DNA of 58,671 nucleotides from an uncultured Pseudobdellovibrionaceae bacterium (lineage in GTDB: Bacteria; Bdellovibrionota; Bdellovibrionia; Bdellovibrionales; Bdellovibrionaceae). The position numbers and the translations under genes were made by a program. Under the pieces are notes generated by a model. It searched no databases, was not told the origin of the DNA, and was given only the letters and a program-made list of their open reading frames with translations. The DNA is taken from assembly GCA_964522115.1 (NCBI GenBank), contig CAZFSX010000001.1:1-58671 (forward strand), given 5' to 3'. Positions 35,016-43,431 of the stretch are shown here, piece by piece (position 1 is the stretch's first letter; the number at the start of each line of letters is the position of its first letter).

Positions 35016-35510
35016 TTACTTCACAGCTCCAGAGGATATGTCATTTTTGATTGCGCCACCAGGAGCCTTGGCTGAAGCTTTCGTTTTTTCCAAATCCTGA
35101 CAGGTTTGGTATGAAAAATAGGATTGATCCAATGATTCTTTTTCTTTATCTTCAAAAATTAATTTTGCATCTTGAAGTTCACAGGTCTGCGTTTTGTCAA
35201 ATAAACTCTGAAGGAATTCACGGCATTCATTGAATTTTTCAATTCCCTCTGTGATACGCATATACTCTTTGAAACTTCCTTCGCTGTTTGCCCTTTTTTT
35301 CTCAAATTCGGATTTCAGGTAGACCTTTGCATCTTCATAACATTTGTCTGGAGCTGTATACCTTGGCAGACGAACTTTCAGTACTTGAGCACAGACTTGA
35401 TGATCATTTTGACAGGTGGAAACATCATCCGCCTGCACACGGGGAGCATCCAGGAAGAAAAACGCTAAGACAAAACATGTTGTAATTTGAATTCCGTCAT
35501 ACTTTTCCAC
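35016..35510 (-). CDS. exported hypothetical protein
   Basis: A GGAGG RBS and a signal-like N terminus (ITTCFVLAFFFLDAPRVQA). The 164-aa protein has several Cys. Confidence 0.45.
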   Translation of the reverse strand: MEKYDGIQITTCFVLAFFFLDAPRVQADDVSTCQNDHQVCAQVLKVRLPRYTAPDKCYEDAKVYLKSEFEKKRANSEGSFKEYMRITEGIEKFNECREFLQSLFDKTQTCELQDAKLIFEDKEKESLDQSYFSYQTCQDLEKTKASAKAPGGAIKNDISSGAVK

Positions 35511-35926: not shown

Positions 35927-37072
35927 ATGCATTTCATTTCCATCGTTTTTTCTTTGATCTTGAATCATTGCGACTGGGCTTCTGCTTCACAACAGGAAAC
36001 TGGGCGGAACGAACAGCCTCAGGTTCAACTTTTAGATGTACGCCCATTTCTAAATGACCCTGCGTGCTCCACTGTTGACCCCCTGTCTTCACTGGCGAAT
36101 GCCAACAAGAATATTCCAAAAAACTGCAGTATTAAAATTGCAGAAGTCGTGAATCATGAAGATTGTAACTGCGCAAAGAATGGCGAAACGGTTCGAGATT
36201 CCAACAACATCAAAGATCTACGAAACCTTTTGCCTGCCATGGCCCCCTTAGTTGCTAAATCTCAAATGAACATTTATGAACAGCAATTTCTTCCTAGCCT
36301 TGGAATCGATGTCGACAGCAAAACACCGATGAATTCCTGCGAAGAAAGACGTGAAAAGCTTCGTCAAAGAGTTTGCGACAAAGCGAATCCATTTGCATTA
36401 AAGAATTCATTTCTTAGCAATCACTGCAAATCCAATAAAAAGACCGATATGAGCAACGATGAAATCGCCTATGTCCAAGCCCGGATTCAGGATGAACAGA
36501 ACTTGGCACAAAATGAACCACAACGCCGTCCTCATTTTTCACAATTTCGTGATCTAGGAATTTATGCTTTACTTGCTTGGACAGGATGTCCGCAGATCAT
36601 TAGGGGCTTTACTGATTTTCTCAAATCAACTAGGTCCCAATTTTCGCTGCAACAACAAGATCGCGAAGGCTCCACGCAGGGAACTTTTTTTCCTCTTACG
36701 ACCGAATTTGCAAACCCAAGTGTTTCAAATGCAGCAACCTCGAACGCTCAAAAAAATAGTTTGCCAGCAAGCAGCACTACCCCCCAGGTCTCCACTTCTG
36801 GCAAGGTCAGAGGTGGAATCAATAATCTTGGATTGAATACAGAAACAGATCTTACTCGCTTATACGACAAAGCATCCTTCGCCATCAGCGTCAGACAACC
36901 GATGGCCAAAGAAGGAGAACAAAAATTAGACCTATCATTAATCTTGCCCGTTTTTCAAAACGCTGCTGTTGCAAGACTGGGTCGACTGCAAACAAGGGAT
37001 ACTTCTATTGAAAACTCCAAGTACGACCCGATATACTACTTGAATTTTACCATACCCTTGGGAAAAAAATAA
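35927..37072 (+). CDS. exported hypothetical protein
   Basis: A 381-aa ORF with a signal peptide ending ..DWASA|SQQ. It is Cys-containing and Ser/Thr/Asn-rich, and I recognise no family. Confidence 0.5.
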   Translation: MHFISIVFSLILNHCDWASASQQETGRNEQPQVQLLDVRPFLNDPACSTVDPLSSLANANKNIPKNCSIKIAEVVNHEDCNCAKNGETVRDSNNIKDLRNLLPAMAPLVAKSQMNIYEQQFLPSLGIDVDSKTPMNSCEERREKLRQRVCDKANPFALKNSFLSNHCKSNKKTDMSNDEIAYVQARIQDEQNLAQNEPQRRPHFSQFRDLGIYALLAWTGCPQIIRGFTDFLKSTRSQFSLQQQDREGSTQGTFFPLTTEFANPSVSNAATSNAQKNSLPASSTTPQVSTSGKVRGGINNLGLNTETDLTRLYDKASFAISVRQPMAKEGEQKLDLSLILPVFQNAAVARLGRLQTRDTSIENSKYDPIYYLNFTIPLGKK

Positions 37073-37075
37073 ATT

Positions 37076-37666
37076 CTACTTCGCTGTAAAATCACGCGCC
37101 ATCACTGTTTTTCGTCCATCACGTCGAGCTTGCTCAACAGCCTGATCACATGCAGTACGAATCATTTCACTCAAAACTGTGGCGACATCTCCTGCTGTAT
37201 TCATGTCTGCAATATCTTTCACGTACTGCTTCATTTTTGAAACAACCACCAAAACTTCATTTTGCATCGAAGACGACACTTTGTTCATATTGATCGAGGA
37301 AGCCCCTGGATTCGATGAGTGATTAGGTGCTGATCCAACGATATATCGCTGCGGAGATTGGGCGGATGATGAAACACTTTGATTGCCAGACGAGGACAAG
37401 GAAGAACTTGCTGAACTTTGTGACCCCTCATCTGCGGAACATTCCTGCATCCACTGTTGTTTTGTTGGTGCTATTTTTTCAACTGCACCAGCATCACGAT
37501 GACGAGCTCCTGGTAAGTGCCGTTCCCAACAAGGGACTGAGCAAAAAACATAGCCTGTGCGTTTGCGTGTGCATGTGCTAACACTGCACTCATAATACTT
37601 ACTCTGGTAGGCCAATGGCTTTTTACAAGAACTACAGACACGCCAGTAATCTGGATGAACCGTCAT
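37076..37666 (-). CDS. cross-brace zinc-finger / Ser-rich linker / histone-fold (DUF1931-type, bacterial-histone-like) protein
   Basis: The N terminus reads CSSC-x12-CSVSTC-x9-CSVPCWERHLPGARH (C2-C2-C2-H2). The middle is low complexity (SQSSASSSLSSSGNQSVSSS). The C terminus reads EVLVVVSKMKQYVKDIADMNTAGDVATVLSEMIRTACDQAVEQARRDGRKTVMARDF. Confidence 0.65.
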   Translation of the reverse strand: MTVHPDYWRVCSSCKKPLAYQSKYYECSVSTCTRKRTGYVFCSVPCWERHLPGARHRDAGAVEKIAPTKQQWMQECSADEGSQSSASSSLSSSGNQSVSSSAQSPQRYIVGSAPNHSSNPGASSINMNKVSSSMQNEVLVVVSKMKQYVKDIADMNTAGDVATVLSEMIRTACDQAVEQARRDGRKTVMARDFTAK

Positions 37667-37888
37667 TTAAATATCCCCCACATTTCGAAATCTCCACACA
37701 AATCTTAGCAGCATAAAAACGGTGAAAGCAATCGATGCCGCAAGCCCATAGCCATAGCCCTCACCTGGGTACGAGGAATAATTCAAACCGAAGTATAAAA
37801 CGAAAGACTTTCCAATCAGAGTCGGCATCAAAAAAGATACAACAAAACTTCGAATTAACTGAGGTCGACTCATTTTTTCTGGGTTCAC
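37667..37888 (-). CDS. small two-TM membrane protein
   Basis: A 73-aa ORF with two hydrophobic helices (VVSFLMPTLIGKSFVLYFGL and GLAASIAFTVFMLLRFVW). Its stop codon abuts the ATG of the histone-fold gene. Confidence 0.5.
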   Translation of the reverse strand: MNPEKMSRPQLIRSFVVSFLMPTLIGKSFVLYFGLNYSSYPGEGYGYGLAASIAFTVFMLLRFVWRFRNVGDI

Positions 37889-38212
37889 AATTTACCTCTT
37901 AGGGGGTTGATCTTTCAGTTATCTTATCTGACCCCTTCTTGCAAGGCTGCAGAAAAAAATTATGTTTTCTGTCACCTTCAAACTGATGGATCGAGTGATA
38001 AAATGGATATCCCCTGCGACAACTGTCGAACATTTTTTGTAGCCCATGAAACCAAGGACTTATCTTTTCCATTCGTAGCATTTTTCCTCAAATATCTGCT
38101 TTGCAAGTGTCTCATTCTGAGATAGGGATCCATGCTTCAGGGCATGAGTATTGCAATAGACATAAGTTGTCCATTGCGCCAACAATTTCAACTCGAGAAC
38201 GAAGAGGTTATT

Positions 38213-38827
38213 ATGTTTTTGAATAAATTTTTATCACTCACAACCATCTGCTTGGCCCTAGCTTTGATATGTCAACCCGGCTTTGCTCAGAATGAGTCCA
38301 CTATCCAAAATGCTAGTTCTGAAAATCCTGCAGCTCCTCATCAGCAGCATGAACCAAATTCTGCAAATGCTTCCCCGCAAACTCCTGTGGTCGCTAACCC
38401 TCAAAATATTCAGACGGGTCAGCCAATCTCTTCTGGTTGTCAAACGGAAGATCCTACTTTTCAACCTTGGGTCCAAAGCCTGTATCAAGAGTATCAGGGA
38501 AACAACTCTTCTGTGGAATCTTCGCAAGAAACTTCCACTGAAAGTCCAACAACCTGGCTTCGTCGAGAAGTGGATATTGGTCGCAAGATTTTTTACAAGT
38601 GCAGCCCTCTACTGAATCAATCCAACCAATGCAAAGACAAACAAACGGATTTAGAAAAGAAATTCGCCAAATTCATTCTGGAAGTTCATGCTCGAAAAAT
38701 CATTGCAGCAAAATATGCTAATAATAAATTTCTTAAACGATTTGCAAAAGGGTCAGAAACCCCTGCTCAATGGTGGACCCATCAAACAGATTTTTTAAAA
38801 GAATCCTTTTCCATGAAGTGCGAATAA
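38213..38827 (+). CDS. exported hypothetical protein
   Basis: I moved the start to ATG 38213, after GAAGAGG. This gives the signal peptide MFLNKFLSLTTICLALALICQPGFA|Q. The track start at 38132 adds 27 non-signal residues. Confidence 0.55.
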   Translation: MFLNKFLSLTTICLALALICQPGFAQNESTIQNASSENPAAPHQQHEPNSANASPQTPVVANPQNIQTGQPISSGCQTEDPTFQPWVQSLYQEYQGNNSSVESSQETSTESPTTWLRREVDIGRKIFYKCSPLLNQSNQCKDKQTDLEKKFAKFILEVHARKIIAAKYANNKFLKRFAKGSETPAQWWTHQTDFLKESFSMKCE

Positions 38828-38941: not shown

Positions 38942-41398
38942 TTAGTGATGCTGTTGAACAGCATGACCGGTATAGTTCGCTTTGATTCCATGAGTGCTTT
39001 CTTTTTGGAACTTGAACAATTCCTTTGGATTTTTAATATCCAAAGCATTCACCAGAACCTGATCCACATGATCCACAAGAATCACTTTTAATTCTTTCAT
39101 GATTTCTTTTGGAATGTCTTTCAAATCCTTTTCATTTTCCTTAGGGCAAATGATTGTTTTAATTCCTCCGCGATGAGCAGCCATGACTTTTTCTTTCAAT
39201 CCACCAATCGCCAAAACTTTTCCGCGCAATGAAATTTCACCCGTCATCGCCACTGTTCTACGAACTGGAATTTTTGTGATCGAAGAAACAATACTTGTCG
39301 TCAATGCAATCCCTGCTGAAGGACCATCTTTCGGTGTCGCTCCTTCAGGTAAATGGATATGCACATCCACGTTTTGGAAGTAATCTTTATCGATTCCCAA
39401 CAAAGGACCACGTGAACGAACGTAGCTCATTGCTGCCGAACAAGATTCTTTCATCACGTCGCCCAGTTGACCTGTGATCGTAAATTTCCCACGACCTGGA
39501 ACAACACTGGCTTCCACAGCAAGCAAGTCTCCGCCCACCTCGGTCCAAGCCATTCCATTTGTCAGACCAATTTCATTTTCATCTTCGATACGACCAAATT
39601 TGTACTTTTCAGGCCCCAATAATTCCACCAACTTCTTCGGTGTCACCTGGTAAGGCTTAACATTTTTGACATCTTTTTTCTTTTTGCCCTCGAATTCAGC
39701 TTGAGCCTCATCCTTCACAATGATGGTCGCAATTTTTCGACAAACATTGGCCACTTGACGTTCTAAATTACGAACACCAGCTTCTCGAGTATAAAAGCGG
39801 ATCACATTTTTCAAAGCACTGTCTTGGATCGTGACCTTACGATCTTGCAAACCATGGTTTTCCAACTGTTTGCCAATCAAGTAGTTCTTTGCAATGTGAA
39901 ACTTTTCAGTTTCCGTGTAGCCTTCCAATGCAATGATTTCCATACGATCCAACAAAGGACGAGGAATCGTGTGCAAAGAGTTCGCAGTCGCAATGAACAT
40001 CACTTTGGACAAATCGTATTCCACTTCCAAGTAATGATCTTGGAAAGTCGCATTTTGTTCAGGATCCAAAACTTCCAACATGGCTGCACTTGGATCTCCA
40101 CGGAAATCCGAAGCCATCTTGTCGATCTCATCCAAAAGGATCAACGGATTGCCTTTGTCCACTTTACGAAGTGCTTGCAAAATCTTACCCGGCATCGCAC
40201 CCACATAGGTTTTGCGATGACCGCGGATTTCAGCTTCGTCACGAACTCCACCCAGAGAAATACGAGCAAAAGGACGATTCAAAGATCTTGCAATCGAGCG
40301 AGCCAAAGATGTTTTACCCACACCTGGAGGACCCACCAAACATAAGATAGGACCTTTCATGTCGCGCTTCAAAGCCAAGACTGCTAAGTATTCTAAGATA
40401 CGCTCTTTGACTTTTTCTAAGCCCCAGTGATCGTCATTCAAGATATCTTCTGCCGCTTTGATATCATGCTTTTCTGCAGAGAATTCATACCATGGCAACG
40501 ACAACATCCAATCGATGTAGTTGCGAACCACAGTCGCTTCTGCACTCATCGGAGACATCAATTTCAGCTTCTTGATTTCTTTTTTCGTTTTTTCACGCGC
40601 TTCTGCGCTCATTTTCTTCTTCGCAAGCTTTTCTTCTAATTCTTGAAGTTCAGCCTGGTAATCATCTTTTTCACCCAACTCTTTTTGAATGGCCTGCATT
40701 TGCTCATTCAAATAGTATTCCTTCTGAGATCGCTCCATCTGTTTTTTTACACGTGTGCGAATCTTCTTTTCCACTTCCAGGATTTCAATTTCACCTGTCA
40801 TTGTATTCAAAAGATGTTCTAAACGTTTTCCTGGATCAAAGATTTCCAATACTTTTTGTTTGTCTTCCAATTTTAAATTCAATTGAGCCACGATAATATC
40901 TGCAAGTTCAGCAGCATTTTCGATGGACGAAACTCGCATCAAAATTTCTGGTGGAATGCGTTTGTTCAACTTCACATAGGTTTCGAAGGTCGTCTTCACC
41001 GAACGAACCATCGCATTGGTTTCAACGATATTTTCGATTTCCTCTTGAATATCTTCAACCTGAGCCAAGAAGTAATTATCATTTGGAATGTAATTTTTAA
41101 TACGAACACGACGCTTACCTTCCACCAAGACTTTGACGGTACCGTCAGGAAGTCTTAAAAGCTGAATGATTGTTCCCACAGTTCCTACACTGTAGATATC
41201 CTTTACTTCTGGATTGTTGGTTTTAGCGTCTCTTTGAGCAGCAAGGACAATGTCCGTTTGCTTGTTCATGGCCTCTTCAAGAGCATTGATGCTTTTTTCG
41301 CGACCCACGAAAAGGGGCATCATCATGTGCGGGAAAATGATCAAATCCCGCAAGGGAAGTAGTGGTAATTGGTTCTGTGTTTTCGCGCCCTCGCTCAT
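38942..41398 (-). CDS. lon: ATP-dependent Lon protease
   Basis: I moved the start to ATG 41398, where AGGAGG sits 5 nt upstream. It has the LON N-domain ([27 protein letters not shown]), Walker A ([15 protein letters not shown]), the catalytic Ser context [11 protein letters not shown], and Lys in GGLKEK. Confidence 0.95.
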
Positions 41399-41467
41399 GG
41401 TTTCCTCCTTCATATGTCGGTTGAGAGACTATGACTAAGGACGCTTGGAACTTTCTTTTCGGTTAAA

Positions 41468-41493
41468 GGAATTTGCGTGGTTTCGCAAATTCC
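41468..41493 (-). terminator. stem-loop between clpX and lon (partial terminator/attenuator)
   Basis: GGAATTTGCG-(6 nt)-CGCAAATTCC, a 10-bp stem. On the minus strand it is followed by TTTAACC, which is a weak U-tract. Confidence 0.4.
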
Positions 41494-41517
41494 CTTTCTG
41501 TCCAGTTAGAGCTTCCG

Positions 41518-42822
41518 CTACGCACTTTCGACGCTGGATTTTTTAGCCTCGTCGTCGGCGCGCATTTCTTCCTCAGTCTTGTACACCAACTTAGGCGGTA
41601 CGCCCTCATCGATGACCTTCTCGTCAATTATAACTTCTTTGACGTTCGACTTGGAAGGAATTTCGAACATTATATCTAACATGGCATGTTCAATCACACC
41701 TCTAAGACCACGTGCGCCAGTTTTACGTTTCAATGCCAACTGAGCTATGGCCTTAAGTCCCTTTTCTGTAAACTTAAGTTCCACACCTTCGTAACTAAAA
41801 AGTTTTTGGTATTGTTTTGTTACCGCATTGCGAGGTTTGACCAAGATGTCGATCAAAGCTGACTCTTCCAAAGGATCCAAAACCGCAATCACAGGAAGAC
41901 GACCGATGAACTCTGGAATCAAACCAAATCTTGATAAATCATCCGGTTCAACTTTCTGAAGAATATTTTCTCCTTCATTGTCTCTTTCTGCCGCCGTTCG
42001 AATATCTGCTCCGATACCCATTGTTTTATTTGTCACGCGACCTTCGATCACTTTATCCAAACCAACGAAAGCTCCACCGACAATAAATAAAATATTGCTG
42101 GTGTCGACTTGAATAAACTCTTGCTGAGGATGCTTACGTCCACCTTTTGGAGGTAAGTTCGCAACAGTTCCTTCCAGGATCTTTAACAGAGCCTGCTGAA
42201 CACCTTCACCACTGACATCGCGAGTGATGGATGGATTTTCTGATTTACGAGAAATTTTATCGATCTCATCGATGTAAATAACGCCTTTTTGAGCTTTTTC
42301 GATATCATAATCCGCCGCTTGCAAAAGATTCAAAACGACGTTTTCCACATCTTCACCCACATAACCAGCTTCGGTCAGTGTTGTGGCATCGGCCATCGCA
42401 AAAGGCACATTCAAAATGCGCGCGATCGTTTGGGCCAACAAAGTCTTTCCTGAACCCGTTGGTCCAATCAAAAGAATATTACTTTTTTGAAGCTCGATAT
42501 CGTCTTTACGTTTTCCACCAGAGATATGATTGATGCGTTTGTAATGATTGTGAACTGCCACTGACAATGCTTTTTTTGCTTTTGTCTGACCAATCACAAA
42601 ATCATCCAAGAACGCTTTGATTTCCTGCGGAACTGGAACTCGGAAAGCTCCACCACGCACGGCGACTTCACGCTGTTTTTCTTCATCGATAATGTCGGTG
42701 CAAAGGTCAATACACTCATCACAAATGTACACACCAGGGCCCGCAATCAACTTCTTCACTTCTTTTTGGTTTTTGCCGCAGAAGCTACACTTCAATACAC
42801 CATTTTCCGTTTTCGAAGACAT
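41518..42822 (-). CDS. clpX: ATP-dependent Clp protease ATP-binding subunit ClpX
   Basis: It has the zinc-binding N terminus ([20 protein letters not shown]), Walker A ([13 protein letters not shown]), and IYIDEIDKI. Confidence 0.95.
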
Positions 42823-42825
42823 GCA

Positions 42826-43431
42826 TTACCCCTTCACTGCACTTTTGCGGAATTCAACCACATGATCAATCAAACCAAAATCTTTTGCTTCTTGAGCCGT
42901 CATAAAGTTGTCGCGATCCATTGCTTTTGTCAGAGTGTCGAAATCACGTCCTGTATGATGAACATACAATTGAGTTAGACGCTCTTTTGTGCGCATCATT
43001 TCACGCGCTTGAATTTCAATGTCACTGGCTTGACCACTGAGTCCACCTGAAATCAAAGGCTGATGAATCATGACACGCGCATTCGGCATGCAATAATGCT
43101 TTCCTTTTGCTCCCGCAGTCAGAAGCATAGATCCCATGCTGGCAGCCATTCCAATACAATACGTTGCGACTTCACATTTCACGAATTGCATCACGTCATA
43201 AATTCCCATTCCCGCAGAAACACTTCCGCCCGGAGAATTAATGTAAAGATGGATATCCTTTTCAGGATTGTCTACTTCCAGAAATAAAAATTGTGCGACG
43301 ATGGCGTTGGCAATTTCATCTGTTACTGGTGAACCCAAAATGACAATGCGATCTTTCAGTAGACGAGAATAGATGTCGTAACTGCGTTCTCCGCGTGATG
43401 ATTGTTCGATGACATATGGAATAAGTGGCAC
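42826..43431 (-). CDS. clpP: ATP-dependent Clp protease proteolytic subunit
   Basis: GTG start after AAGGAGA. The catalytic triad contexts are present: GMAASMGS (Ser), MIHQP (His), DRD (Asp). Confidence 0.95.

What the first reader, a model, noticed from the sequence alone, without database searches (positions are those of the whole stretch)
37076..37888. Zinc-finger/histone-fold fusion protein coupled to a small membrane protein
The C-terminal ~60 residues are EVLVVVSKMKQYVKDIADMNTAGDVATVLSEMIRTACDQAVEQARRDGRKTVMARDF. They carry the helix-strand-helix layout and the hallmark ..A...GRKTV...D.. ending of DUF1931-type bacterial histone-fold proteins. To my recollection this is the family that includes the abundant Bdellovibrio nucleoid histone.

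Here the domain is preceded by an eight-ligand cross-brace zinc module (CxxC..Cx4C..Cx3Cx3Hx5H, with the YxFCSxxCxxxH flavour of ZZ/HIT/MYND fingers). A ~45-residue Ser-rich disordered linker lies between the two. Zinc-finger-plus-histone ('ZZ-histone'-like) architectures have, as far as I recall, only been catalogued computationally and not characterised.

The gene's ATG abuts the stop of a 73-aa two-TM protein, with no spacer, which suggests co-translation and perhaps membrane-tethered chromatin.
Basis: partly seen in the sequence, partly recalled or inferred. Interest (0 to 1): 0.65.

Follow-up and report, generated by a model that had tools for sequence, protein, structure and literature searches.

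The report
ZZ-type zinc-finger bacterial histone gene
This gene encodes an ordinary member of the already catalogued but still untested "ZZ histone" family of Bdellovibrio-like bacteria: a two-zinc finger tethered to a DNA-binding histone fold. Its tight link to a small membrane-protein gene occurs only in this organism's closest relatives.

Summary
A 196-aa ORF (37076-37666, minus strand) encodes three parts: an N-terminal eight-ligand Cys/His module, a 39%-serine disordered linker, and a C-terminal histone fold.

- **Histone fold:** it is 52% identical to the Bdellovibrio histone HBb (PDB 8CMP/8FVX/9EZZ; E 7e-12; TM about 0.8, rmsd 1.6 Å). It keeps 9 of HBb's 12 DNA-contact residues (a tenth, Ser24, in 102 of 120 relatives, but Ala in the window) and the Arg-Asp clamp.
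- **Zinc ligands:** seven of eight are invariant in 120 homologues. The eighth is Cys in 107 and Asp in 13.
- **Fold of the zinc module:** the best structural matches are all ZZ domains, but only weakly (E 0.01), and Pfam's ZZ model does not match.
- **Family:** this architecture is the "ZZ histone" subfamily defined by Schwab et al. 2024. Its presumed B. bacteriovorus member is Bd3044. I found no experimental study of it. The "DUF1931-type" label is wrong.
- **Upstream gene:** the 73-aa gene is a real, conserved two-TM family. It abuts the histone gene (TAAATG), and metatranscriptome contigs span the junction.
- **Gene pair:** it is not conserved. It occurs only in near-identical relatives: 1 of 46 metagenome loci that encode the small protein, and 0 of 22 other distinct ZZ-histone loci. 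"Membrane-tethered chromatin" is therefore not supported.

Verdict: a new member of a known, uncharacterised kind, of modest interest.

The parts
37076..37666 (-). ZZ-histone coding sequence (196 aa, ATG start, TAG stop at 37076-37078)
   Evidence: ORF list. 846 homologues at E<=1e-3, mostly 156-234 aa, in Bdellovibrionota and Myxococcota.
37469..37645 (-). N-terminal two-zinc (C4 + C2H2, cross-brace) ZZ-like module, residues about 8-66. Ligands are C11, C14, C27, C32, C42, C46, H50, H56.
   Evidence: Ligand conservation is 7/8 invariant and C42 is 107 Cys / 13 Asp in 120 homologues. AlphaFold2 pLDDT is about 90. The Foldseek top 20 hits are all ZZ domains (p62 6MJ7, E 1e-2, prob 0.98). No Pfam match. 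Net charge is +6 here and +3 to +7 across the family.
37421..37462 (-). Predicted helix (residues 69-82) that packs after the zinc module
   Evidence: DSSP on both AlphaFold2 models. P67 is invariant.
37262..37438 (-). Ser-rich, disordered, length-variable linker (residues 77-135)
   Evidence: 39% Ser. pLDDT below 50. Linker length is 21-101 aa in homologues. There is a 16-aa indel against the closest relative. No tandem DNA repeat.
37337..37357 (-). Conserved short motif inside the linker. The family consensus is P-x-R-R-I-I-V; here it reads S-P-Q-R-Y-I-V (residues 104-110).
   Evidence: R107 is Arg in 113 of 120 homologues, and hydrophobic residues follow. Its function is unknown. AlphaFold2 does not predict it to dock onto either domain.
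37085..37261 (-). C-terminal HBb-like histone fold (residues 136-194). Alpha1 is 142-153, alpha2 is 159-182, and a truncated alpha3 is 191-194.
   Evidence: phmmer against PDB: 8CMP 6.7e-12 and 8FVX 9.4e-12. Foldseek: HBb TM 0.77-0.82, rmsd 1.5-1.7 Å, 51-53% identity. DNA-contact residues and the RD clamp are conserved (mapped).
37667..37888 (-). Small membrane-protein coding sequence (73 aa, GTG start). It has two hydrophobic segments (about 15-33 and 49-64) around an invariant Y-P-G-E-G-Y-G-Y-G-L loop. Both termini are basic.
   Evidence: ORF. Hydropathy. 82 homologues of 44-102 aa, none with a Pfam or NCBIfam match.
37664..37669 (-). TAAATG junction: stop of the small gene directly followed by the start of the ZZ-histone gene
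   Evidence: Sequence. Identical in relatives L027 and L029. An RNA-derived contig, 100% identical, spans 37494-37697.
37674..37679 (-). Shine-Dalgarno-like GGGGGA, 7 nt upstream of the ZZ-histone ATG and inside the small gene
   Evidence: Read from the sequence. Its function is inferred.
37894..37900 (-). Shine-Dalgarno-like AAGAGGT, 5 nt upstream of the GTG start of the small gene
   Evidence: Read from the sequence. The same SD precedes an ATG start in L027 and L029.

Best explanation
The 196-aa protein is a member of the 'ZZ histone' subfamily of bacterial alpha3 histones. This family is found in Bdellovibrionota, Myxococcota and their relatives, and the presumed B. bacteriovorus representative is Bd3044.

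**Shown here**
- The C-terminal 60 residues are a close homologue of the DNA-bending histone HBb.
- They keep most of HBb's DNA-backbone contacts and its fold-stabilising Arg-Asp clamp.
- The N-terminal 66 residues form a conserved module with two predicted zinc sites, in the C4 + C2H2 cross-brace arrangement described for ZZ histones. Its closest structural relatives are ZZ domains.
- The two domains are joined by a disordered, serine-rich tether of variable length that carries one short conserved motif.

**Inferred**
- The protein dimerises through the histone fold as HBb does. It then binds DNA non-specifically in the minor groove and bends it.
- Each dimer carries two basic zinc modules on flexible arms. 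These add a second interaction, most likely with a protein partner or with further nucleic acid.
- It would therefore act as a low-abundance, accessory or regulatory nucleoid protein rather than as the bulk chromatin protein.

**The upstream gene**
The 73-aa gene encodes a separate, conserved two-TM protein of unknown function. In this lineage only, it has come to lie directly in front of the histone gene. The two are probably co-transcribed and possibly translationally coupled. I read this as a local gene arrangement, not a functional module.
For: **Histone domain**
- PDB sequence matches to HBb at E 7e-12.
- Foldseek TM about 0.8, rmsd about 1.6 Å, 52% identity.
- Predicted alpha1, alpha2 and a one-turn alpha3.
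- Of the HBb DNA contacts named in PMC11317129, S9, K10, K12, K16, N22, T23, K52, T53 and R57 map to S143, K144, K146, K150, N156, T157, K186, T187 and R191. These are conserved in 115-120 of 120 homologues.
- The clamp residues R185 and D192 are invariant.

**Zinc module**
- Ligand invariance.
- Confident AlphaFold2 model.
- ZZ domains are the best fold matches.
- Seven of the eight ligand positions equal the published ZZ-histone HMM positions plus one.

**Family and its status:**

**Gene pair is local**
- hmmsearch of 22 other distinct ZZ-histone loci and 45 other small-protein loci finds no adjacency.
- ZZ-histone neighbours differ between clades.
- The small protein is more often followed by other membrane proteins.

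**Co-transcription:** RNA-derived contigs span the junction, and in a related strain one spans the whole small ORF plus the 5' part of the histone gene.
Against: - No biochemical data exist for any ZZ histone. Zinc binding, dimerisation and DNA binding are all inferred.
- The ZZ assignment of the N-terminal module is weak. No Foldseek hit reaches E<=0.001, rmsd is 4-5 Å, and Pfam ZZ does not match.
- Two HBb DNA contacts differ: T8 becomes Val, and A25 is variable. S24 is Ala in the window.
- The histone domain alone has a net charge of only +1.
- The module is basic, whereas the peptide-binding pocket residues of eukaryotic ZZ domains are reported not to be conserved. The nature of its ligand is therefore open.
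- Metatranscriptome contigs carry no strand information and may include contaminating DNA (tool caveat).
Confidence: 0.75

Rival explanations
1. Membrane-tethered chromatin. The 73-aa two-TM protein and the ZZ histone form a functional pair, made together by translational coupling, which anchors DNA to the inner membrane.
For: - Zero-spacer TAAATG junction with an internal SD.
- The arrangement is kept in the closest relatives L027-L029.
- RNA-derived contigs span the junction.
- Both termini of the small protein are basic, so they are probably cytoplasmic (inference).
Against: - The pair is confined to sequences about 80-95% identical to the window's proteins.
- 45 of 46 metagenome loci with the small gene have no ZZ histone within up to 3 kb. 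22 other distinct ZZ-histone loci have no small gene within up to 4 kb.
- In a Pseudobdellovibrio MAG the two genes lie on different contigs.
- The small protein usually sits next to other membrane proteins.
- Both families are therefore kept without each other in the loci sampled.
Confidence: 0.06
2. The basic zinc module is a second nucleic-acid-binding site. This would turn an HBb-like bender into a DNA-bridging or looping protein, with two arms per dimer, or into an RNA/DNA-binding protein.
For: - The module carries net charge +3 to +7 (median +5) in all 120 homologues, while the histone domain is near neutral.
- Invariant or near-invariant basic residues are K15, R36 and R57.
- The pocket residues of peptide-binding ZZ domains are reported as not conserved.
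- The long flexible tether would allow contacts in trans.
Against: - The nearest structural relatives (p62, HERC2, PRT1 and BIG ZZ domains) bind peptides, not nucleic acids.
- There is no direct evidence.
- Standalone copies of the module exist without any DNA-binding partner domain. This fits either reading.
Confidence: 0.3
3. The histone fold serves mainly as a dimerisation scaffold, as in TAF or NF-Y type proteins. On this view the protein is a specific regulator or adaptor whose activity resides in the zinc module, not a general DNA binder.
For: - The zinc module is at least as conserved as the histone domain (56-71% identity for residues 1-84 against 47-65% overall).
- Low expression and abundance are reported for the B. 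bacteriovorus ZZ histone.
- It apparently cannot replace Bd0055.
Against: The DNA-contact residues of HBb are under strong conservation in this family: S143, K144, K146, N156, T157, K186, T187 and R191 are each conserved in 115-120 of 120 homologues. That would be unexpected if DNA binding had been lost.
Confidence: 0.15
4. The C-terminal domain is a DUF1931-type histone-fold protein.
For: One PDB relative, the Leptospira HLp structure 9QT0, is deposited under the name 'DUF1931 domain-containing protein'. It matches at E 7e-4.
Against: - No Pfam DUF1931 match at E<=10. The only Pfam match is CBFD_NFYB_HMF.
- The DUF1931 pseudodimer structures do not appear among the PDB hits at E<=10.
- DUF1931 proteins are two-fold pseudodimers that lack DNA-binding residues. 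This protein has a single fold that keeps them.
Confidence: 0.03

Closest known systems
ZZ histones (alpha3 histone subfamily; Schwab et al. 2024, Nat Commun, PMC11390915). Examples: Haliangium ochraceum D0LYE7 and, by inference, B. bacteriovorus Bd3044.
   Same: - The same architecture: an N-terminal C4 + C2H2 zinc module, then a linker, then a bacterial-dimer-like histone fold with a truncated alpha3.
- Seven of the eight ligand positions equal the published HMM positions plus one.
- The same taxa (Bdellovibrionota and Myxococcota).
   Different: Nothing essential.
- The linker here is unusually Ser-rich, and 16 aa longer than in its closest relative.
- The gene is fused into an operon-like arrangement with a small membrane-protein gene, which other members lack.
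HBb / Bd0055, the 'bacterial dimer' histone of Bdellovibrio bacteriovorus (PDB 8CMP, 8FVX, 9EZZ, 9F0E)
   Same: - The histone fold is 51-53% identical, with TM about 0.8.
- Most DNA-backbone contact residues and the RD clamp are conserved.
- The dimer-interface positions L31 and I35 are kept as L165 and I169 (read from the alignment).
   Different: - HBb is a free-standing protein of about 64 aa, highly abundant and probably essential.
- This protein carries a 135-residue N-terminal extension (zinc module plus linker).
- Its family is reported as lowly expressed.
- T8 becomes Val, and S24 becomes Ala in the window.
Eukaryotic ZZ domains (p62/SQSTM1, HERC2, p300, ZZZ3, PRT1, BIG; Pfam PF00569)
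   Same: - A two-zinc cross-brace module of about 50-60 residues.
- These are the best Foldseek matches (prob up to 0.98, TM 0.55-0.62).
   Different: - No sequence-profile match.
- Different ligand spacing (Cx4C and Cx3C in place of CxxC pairs).
- rmsd of 4-5 Å.
- The module is strongly basic.
- The peptide-pocket residues are reported as not conserved.
- It is followed by an extra beta-strand and helix (residues 61-82).
FtF histones (Leptospira HLp, PDB 9QT0; Thermococcus HTkC, PDB 9F2C)
   Same: The alpha3-truncated histone fold (TM 0.79-0.84, 30-34% identity).
   Different: These are more distant in sequence. They form tetramers that wrap or bridge DNA. The window protein is much closer to the dimeric HBb type.

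Membership tests
ZZ histones (Schwab 2024) | N-terminal zinc-finger domain with a C4 site and a C2H2 site (eight ligands) | tested here: met
   C11, C14, C27, C32, C42, C46, H50 and H56 are present. Seven are invariant, and C42 is Cys in 107 and Asp in 13 of 120 homologues. Seven positions equal the published HMM positions plus one; the eighth is printed as C43 in the paper, where 45 would be expected.
ZZ histones (Schwab 2024) | The N-terminal domain is structurally ZZ-like | tested here: met
   With the N-domain model, the Foldseek top 20 PDB hits are all ZZ domains (best E 1e-2, prob 0.98, TM 0.55-0.62). MYND and HIT are much weaker. The support is weak in absolute terms, since no hit reaches E<=0.001.
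ZZ histones (Schwab 2024) | C-terminal bacterial-dimer-like alpha3 histone fold (short alpha3) | tested here: met
   HBb matches at E 7e-12. TM is about 0.8. Alpha3 is predicted as a single turn, residues 191-194.
ZZ histones (Schwab 2024) | Direct homology to named members (D0LYE7, Bd3044) | not tested
Myxococcota and Bdellovibrio-labelled MAG relatives were found at 38-56% identity.
ZZ histones (Schwab 2024) | Actual binding of two zinc ions | not testable with these tools
   This needs ICP-MS or a solved structure.
Bacterial dimer histones (HBb type) | Histone fold with HBb-like DNA-contact residues and RD clamp | tested here: met
   9 of the 12 contacts named for HBb are conserved across the family and in the window (S24 is kept in 102 of 120 relatives but is Ala here; T8 and A25 differ). 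R185 and D192 are invariant.
Bacterial dimer histones (HBb type) | Free-standing single-domain protein of about 60 aa | tested here: not met
   The protein has 196 aa, with a 135-residue N-terminal extension. It is therefore filed under ZZ histones, not bacterial dimers.
Bacterial dimer histones (HBb type) | Forms dimers; binds and bends DNA | not testable with these tools
   No multimer prediction or assay was available.
DUF1931 (PF09123) pseudodimeric histones | Match to the DUF1931 profile; two histone folds in one chain; DNA-binding residues absent | tested here: not met
   No Pfam DUF1931 hit at E<=10. The protein has a single fold, and its DNA-contact residues are present.
Eukaryotic ZZ domain (PF00569) | Match to the Pfam ZZ profile | tested here: not met
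   hmmscan of residues 1-81 at E<=10 returned only an insignificant zf_C2H2_13 match.
Conserved two-gene module (small TM protein + ZZ histone) | Adjacency conserved across the two families | tested here: not met
   1 of 46 metagenome loci with the small protein has the pair, and 0 of 22 other distinct ZZ-histone loci has it. The pair is seen only in the near-relatives L027-L029, with L033 being the same contig as L027.

The most novel reading that the evidence does not exclude
The conserved, uniformly basic two-zinc module, together with the conserved P-x-R-R-I-I-V motif in the tether, may give this histone an activity that HBb lacks. Candidates are DNA bridging or looping by two flexible arms, or recruitment of a specific partner to DNA. 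A cysteine-zinc redox switch is also conceivable, though that idea is mine and untested.

ZZ histones would then be a regulated class of bacterial chromatin protein, mechanistically distinct from HBb. A still bolder variant applies to this lineage only: that translational coupling to the two-TM protein creates a membrane anchor for the nucleoid.
Probability: 0.2. Interest if true: 0.6.

Novelty: new member of a known kind. Interest (0 to 1): 0.3.

Why it matters
Bacterial histones were recognised only recently, and only HBb-type and FtF-type members have been studied experimentally. ZZ histones are a third subfamily. They are conserved (846 homologues found here) and occur in culturable bacteria, but their biochemistry is unknown.

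This copy adds no new principle. The analysis does sharpen what should be tested:
- The HBb DNA-contact set is conserved.
- The zinc module is basic, which argues against the idea that it reads basic histone tails.
- The linker holds a conserved short motif.
- The module also occurs as a standalone protein.

The analysis also removes one attractive but unsupported idea, membrane-tethered chromatin.

Tried and rejected
- **Pfam and NCBIfam on the whole protein and on each domain.** Only a borderline CBFD_NFYB_HMF / archaeal-histone match appeared. There was no match to ZZ, HIT, MYND, TRASH or DUF1931.
- **Pfam and NCBIfam on the 73-aa protein.** Nothing.
- **Conservation of the gene pair.** I tested it three ways: genome loci found with the histone, contigs that encode individual homologues, and a metagenome scan with the small-protein alignment. 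The pair was rejected as a conserved module.
- **A conserved operon partner of ZZ histones.** Neighbour clustering found none beyond subclades, at most 5 of 25 loci.
- **Intramolecular docking of the linker motif onto the zinc module.** AlphaFold2 leaves the motif disordered, with pLDDT about 45-50, so there is no support.
- **A tandem DNA repeat as the origin of the Ser-rich tract.** None was found.
- **Other architectures of the zinc module**. Many apparent 'no-histone' proteins are fragments. Others change into unrelated or low-complexity sequence right after the conserved VLVVVSK stretch, and look like frameshifted or chimeric gene calls. Only short standalone forms (about 67-77 aa, for example L021) look genuine.
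- **Promoter and terminator scan of the locus.** It was uninformative, with counts at the shuffle expectation.
- **Zinc-site geometry.** I could not check it, because model coordinates are not exposed.
Full report
**What is in the sequence**

The window carries two abutting ORFs on the minus strand: a 196-aa ORF (37076-37666, ATG) and a 73-aa ORF (37667-37888, GTG). The TAA stop of the small ORF is followed at once by the ATG of the larger one, giving TAAATG.

Each start has a Shine-Dalgarno-like sequence in front of it. AAGAGGT lies 5 nt before the GTG. GGGGGA lies 7 nt before the ATG, inside the small ORF. In the closest relative the small gene begins with ATG at the same place, behind the same SD. 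This supports the GTG start.

The 196-aa protein has the ligand pattern C11-x2-C14-x12-C27-x4-C32-x9-C42-x3-C46-x3-H50-x5-H56. The only correction is that the linker is nearer 59 residues than 45.

**The C-terminal domain**

A phmmer search of the PDB matches residues 136-194 to the Bdellovibrio bacteriovorus histone HBb/Bd0055. The E-values are 6.7e-12 for 8CMP and 9.4e-12 for 8FVX. Weaker matches are the Leptospira histone HLp, Thermococcus HTkC and the archaeal HMf histones.

An AlphaFold2 model built on 50 homologues predicts alpha1 (142-153), alpha2 (159-182) and a one-turn alpha3 (191-194). Foldseek ranks the HBb structures first, with TM 0.77-0.82 on the target, rmsd 1.5-1.7 Å and 51-53% identity.

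I used the HBb numbering of Hu et al. 2024 (PMC11317129) together with the alignment. The DNA-contact residues S9, K10, K12, K16, N22, T23, K52, T53 and R57 then correspond to S143, K144, K146, K150, N156, T157, K186, T187 and R191. Each is conserved in 115-120 of 120 homologues. The clamp residues R185 and D192 are invariant. T8 is Val in this family, and S24 is Ala in the window but Ser in 102 of 120.

The 'DUF1931-type' label does not hold. Pfam gives only CBFD_NFYB_HMF, at 18.7 bits for the whole protein and 21.4 bits for the isolated domain, which is exactly the gathering score. It gives no DUF1931 match at E<=10. The literature treats DUF1931 pseudodimers as a separate group that lacks DNA-binding residues.

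**The N-terminal domain**

In 120 homologues, seven of the eight ligands are invariant. C42 is Cys in 107 and Asp in 13, the latter forming a subgroup with the sequence VFDSVHCWERH. W8, K15, the V-S-T run before C32, R36, G38, F41, A61, E63 and P67 are also invariant among the 50 aligned sequences.

AlphaFold2 models the module confidently. In the full-length model, pLDDT is about 90 for most 10-residue blocks. For residues 1-84 alone, pTM is 0.65.

With the domain-only model, the 20 best PDB matches are all ZZ domains: p62/SQSTM1, BIG, HERC2 and PRT1. The best has E 1e-2, probability 0.98 and TM 0.55-0.62. LIM, MYND and HIT-containing chains come lower. No match reaches E<=0.001, rmsd is 4-5 Å, and Pfam's ZZ model does not match. 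'ZZ-like' is thus the best available description, but the support is weak.

The module is basic throughout the family, with net charge +3 to +7 and a median of +5. The histone domain is near neutral.

A phmmer scan of 1.84 billion representative proteins with residues 1-75 found only 265 clusters at E<=1e-3. Of the 148 sequences retrieved, 64 also carry the histone fold. Most of the others are fragments, or look like frameshifted or chimeric gene calls. A few are genuine standalone proteins of about 67-77 aa. One example is L021, which ends in a stop codon after 75 residues.

**The linker**

The linker is predicted to be disordered (pLDDT below 50). Its length ranges from 21 to 101 residues in homologues. 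It differs by a 16-residue indel from a relative whose folded domains are about 95% identical. It does not come from a tandem DNA repeat.

It holds one conserved island, consensus P-x-R-R-I-I-V (SPQRYIV here, residues 104-110). The second Arg is present in 113 of 120 homologues. AlphaFold2 does not dock this motif onto either domain.

**What is known about the family**

Schwab et al. 2024 (PMC11390915) defined 'ZZ histones' as a minor alpha3-histone subfamily with exactly this architecture. They described a C4 site and a C2H2 site, and similarity to the HERC2, p300 and ZZZ3 ZZ domains. They reported that the peptide pocket is not conserved. They also reported low transcript and protein levels for the B. 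bacteriovorus member.

Hocher et al. 2023 describe Bd3044 as the second, longer and less abundant histone-fold protein of B. bacteriovorus, present in 37% of Bdellovibrionota genomes. A 2025 preprint reports that bd3044 transcripts peak late in the growth phase.

I found no paper that characterises a ZZ histone biochemically or genetically. One review says that deletion of Bd3044 is lethal. The passages I retrieved from the primary paper report deletion attempts only for bd0055, so I do not rely on that statement. That Bd3044 is the ZZ histone of HD100 is my inference from these two sources. No retrieved text says so outright.

**The small gene and the pairing**

The 73-aa protein belongs to a real, unannotated family. 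The search found 82 homologues of 44-102 aa, and the named ones come from Bdellovibrio-like MAGs. The family has two hydrophobic segments, basic termini and an invariant loop, Y-P-G-E-G-Y-G-Y-G-L.

The abutting arrangement with a ZZ histone recurs only in L027-L029, and in L033, which is the same contig as L027. Those loci share the Lon synteny. Their DNA is about 90% identical over lon and about 77% identical over the pair and its downstream neighbour. Their small protein is 95% identical and their ZZ histone 80% identical.

- Profile searches of 22 other distinct ZZ-histone loci (L001-L022 and L024), with up to 4 kb of flank, found no small-protein gene.
- A metagenome scan with the small-protein alignment returned 46 loci. 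Only the one just mentioned has a ZZ histone.
- In one Pseudobdellovibrio MAG the two genes have distant locus tags on different contigs.
- The small gene is instead often followed, again tightly, by another membrane protein of about 80 aa (9 loci) or by a Na_H_antiport_3-type membrane protein (3 loci).
- ZZ-histone neighbours vary by clade. The largest shared neighbour covers 5 of 25 loci.

Within this lineage the two genes are probably one transcript. A 205-nt metatranscriptome contig, 100% identical, spans 37494-37697. An 889-nt contig from a strain about 93% identical spans 37329-38155. These contigs carry no strand information and could contain DNA.

**Context**

The organism is an uncultured Bdellovibrionota-like bacterium. 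The best named relatives of both proteins are Bdellovibrionota and Pseudobdellovibrio MAGs. The sequence occurs in wastewater, activated-sludge and freshwater metagenomes.

The neighbouring genes are ordinary chromosomal genes: clpP-clpX-lon, a type III glutamine synthetase, an OPT transporter and a leucyl aminopeptidase.

**Conclusion**

The gene is a typical member of the ZZ-histone family. The most likely mechanism is an HBb-like dimer that binds and bends DNA through conserved minor-groove contacts. It would carry two basic zinc modules on flexible serine-rich arms, and these would provide a second interaction, with a protein or with nucleic acid. The identity and conservation of the domains are shown. 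Dimerisation, DNA binding, zinc binding and the role of the module are inferred.

The link to the small membrane protein is a local operon arrangement. The finding is a new member of a known but experimentally unexplored kind. It is of modest interest, mainly as a pointer to an accessible open question about bacterial chromatin.

Noticed in passing
window 37337-37357 (residues 104-110 of the ZZ histone): A short conserved motif, P-x-R-R-I-I-V, sits in the middle of an otherwise hypervariable, disordered linker. The second Arg is present in 113 of 120 homologues. I did not see it mentioned in the passages of the ZZ-histone paper that I read.
   Followed up: partly
window 37541-37543 (Cys42 codon); homologues P0040, P0055, P0064, P0094, P0110: In 13 of 120 homologues the fifth zinc ligand is Asp instead of Cys (VFDSVHCWERH). 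These form a subgroup with long linkers. Either Asp ligates the zinc or the first site is altered.
   Followed up: partly
L021 3980-4207; proteins P0265, P0288, P0312: The ZZ-like zinc module also occurs as a standalone protein of about 67-77 aa without a histone fold. L021 ends in a stop codon after 75 residues.
   Followed up: partly
window 37667-37888 and loci L030-L078: The 73-aa protein defines an unannotated family of two-TM proteins with an invariant Y-P-G-E-G-Y-G-Y-G-L loop. In 9 loci it is followed within a few bases by another conserved membrane protein of about 80 aa (GWISTxTFLxSI...HGATAIWVKW). In 3 loci it is followed by a Na_H_antiport_3-type protein.
   Followed up: partly
L028 about 3420 (run of A in the ZZ-histone gene): One metagenome copy of the closest relative's gene has an extra A in an A6 run. 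This splits the gene into two frames. It is probably an assembly or sequencing error.
   Followed up: partly
window 37076-37666 against L027 3223-3765: Over lon, the window and its closest relative are about 90% identical in DNA. From the small gene through the ZZ histone and the downstream 381-aa gene they are only about 77% identical. There is also a 16-aa indel in the Ser-rich linker.
   Followed up: no
proteins P0220, P0320, P0349 (representative library): Several database proteins carry the zinc module and then switch to unrelated sequence exactly after the conserved VLVVVSK stretch. One example continues as an MltG/YceG-like sequence (my reading by eye, not tested). These look like chimeric assemblies or gene calls, not true fusions.
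   Followed up: no
window 35927-37072 (+), 38132-38827 (+), 35016-35510 (-): Three flanking ORFs of 381, 231 and 164 aa have no Pfam match. The 381-aa ORF converges on the ZZ-histone gene with only 3 nt between the two stop codons. The 231-aa ORF has a hydrophobic N-terminal stretch, so it may be secreted.
   Followed up: no
window 38942-43431 (-): A clpP-clpX-lon gene cluster lies just upstream on the same strand. A divergent 231-aa gene separates it from the small-gene/histone pair.
   Followed up: partly
literature (PMC11318664 against PMC10627809): A review states that deletion of Bd3044 is lethal. The passages I retrieved from the primary paper describe deletion attempts only for bd0055. 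The essentiality of the ZZ histone therefore appears untested.
   Followed up: partly
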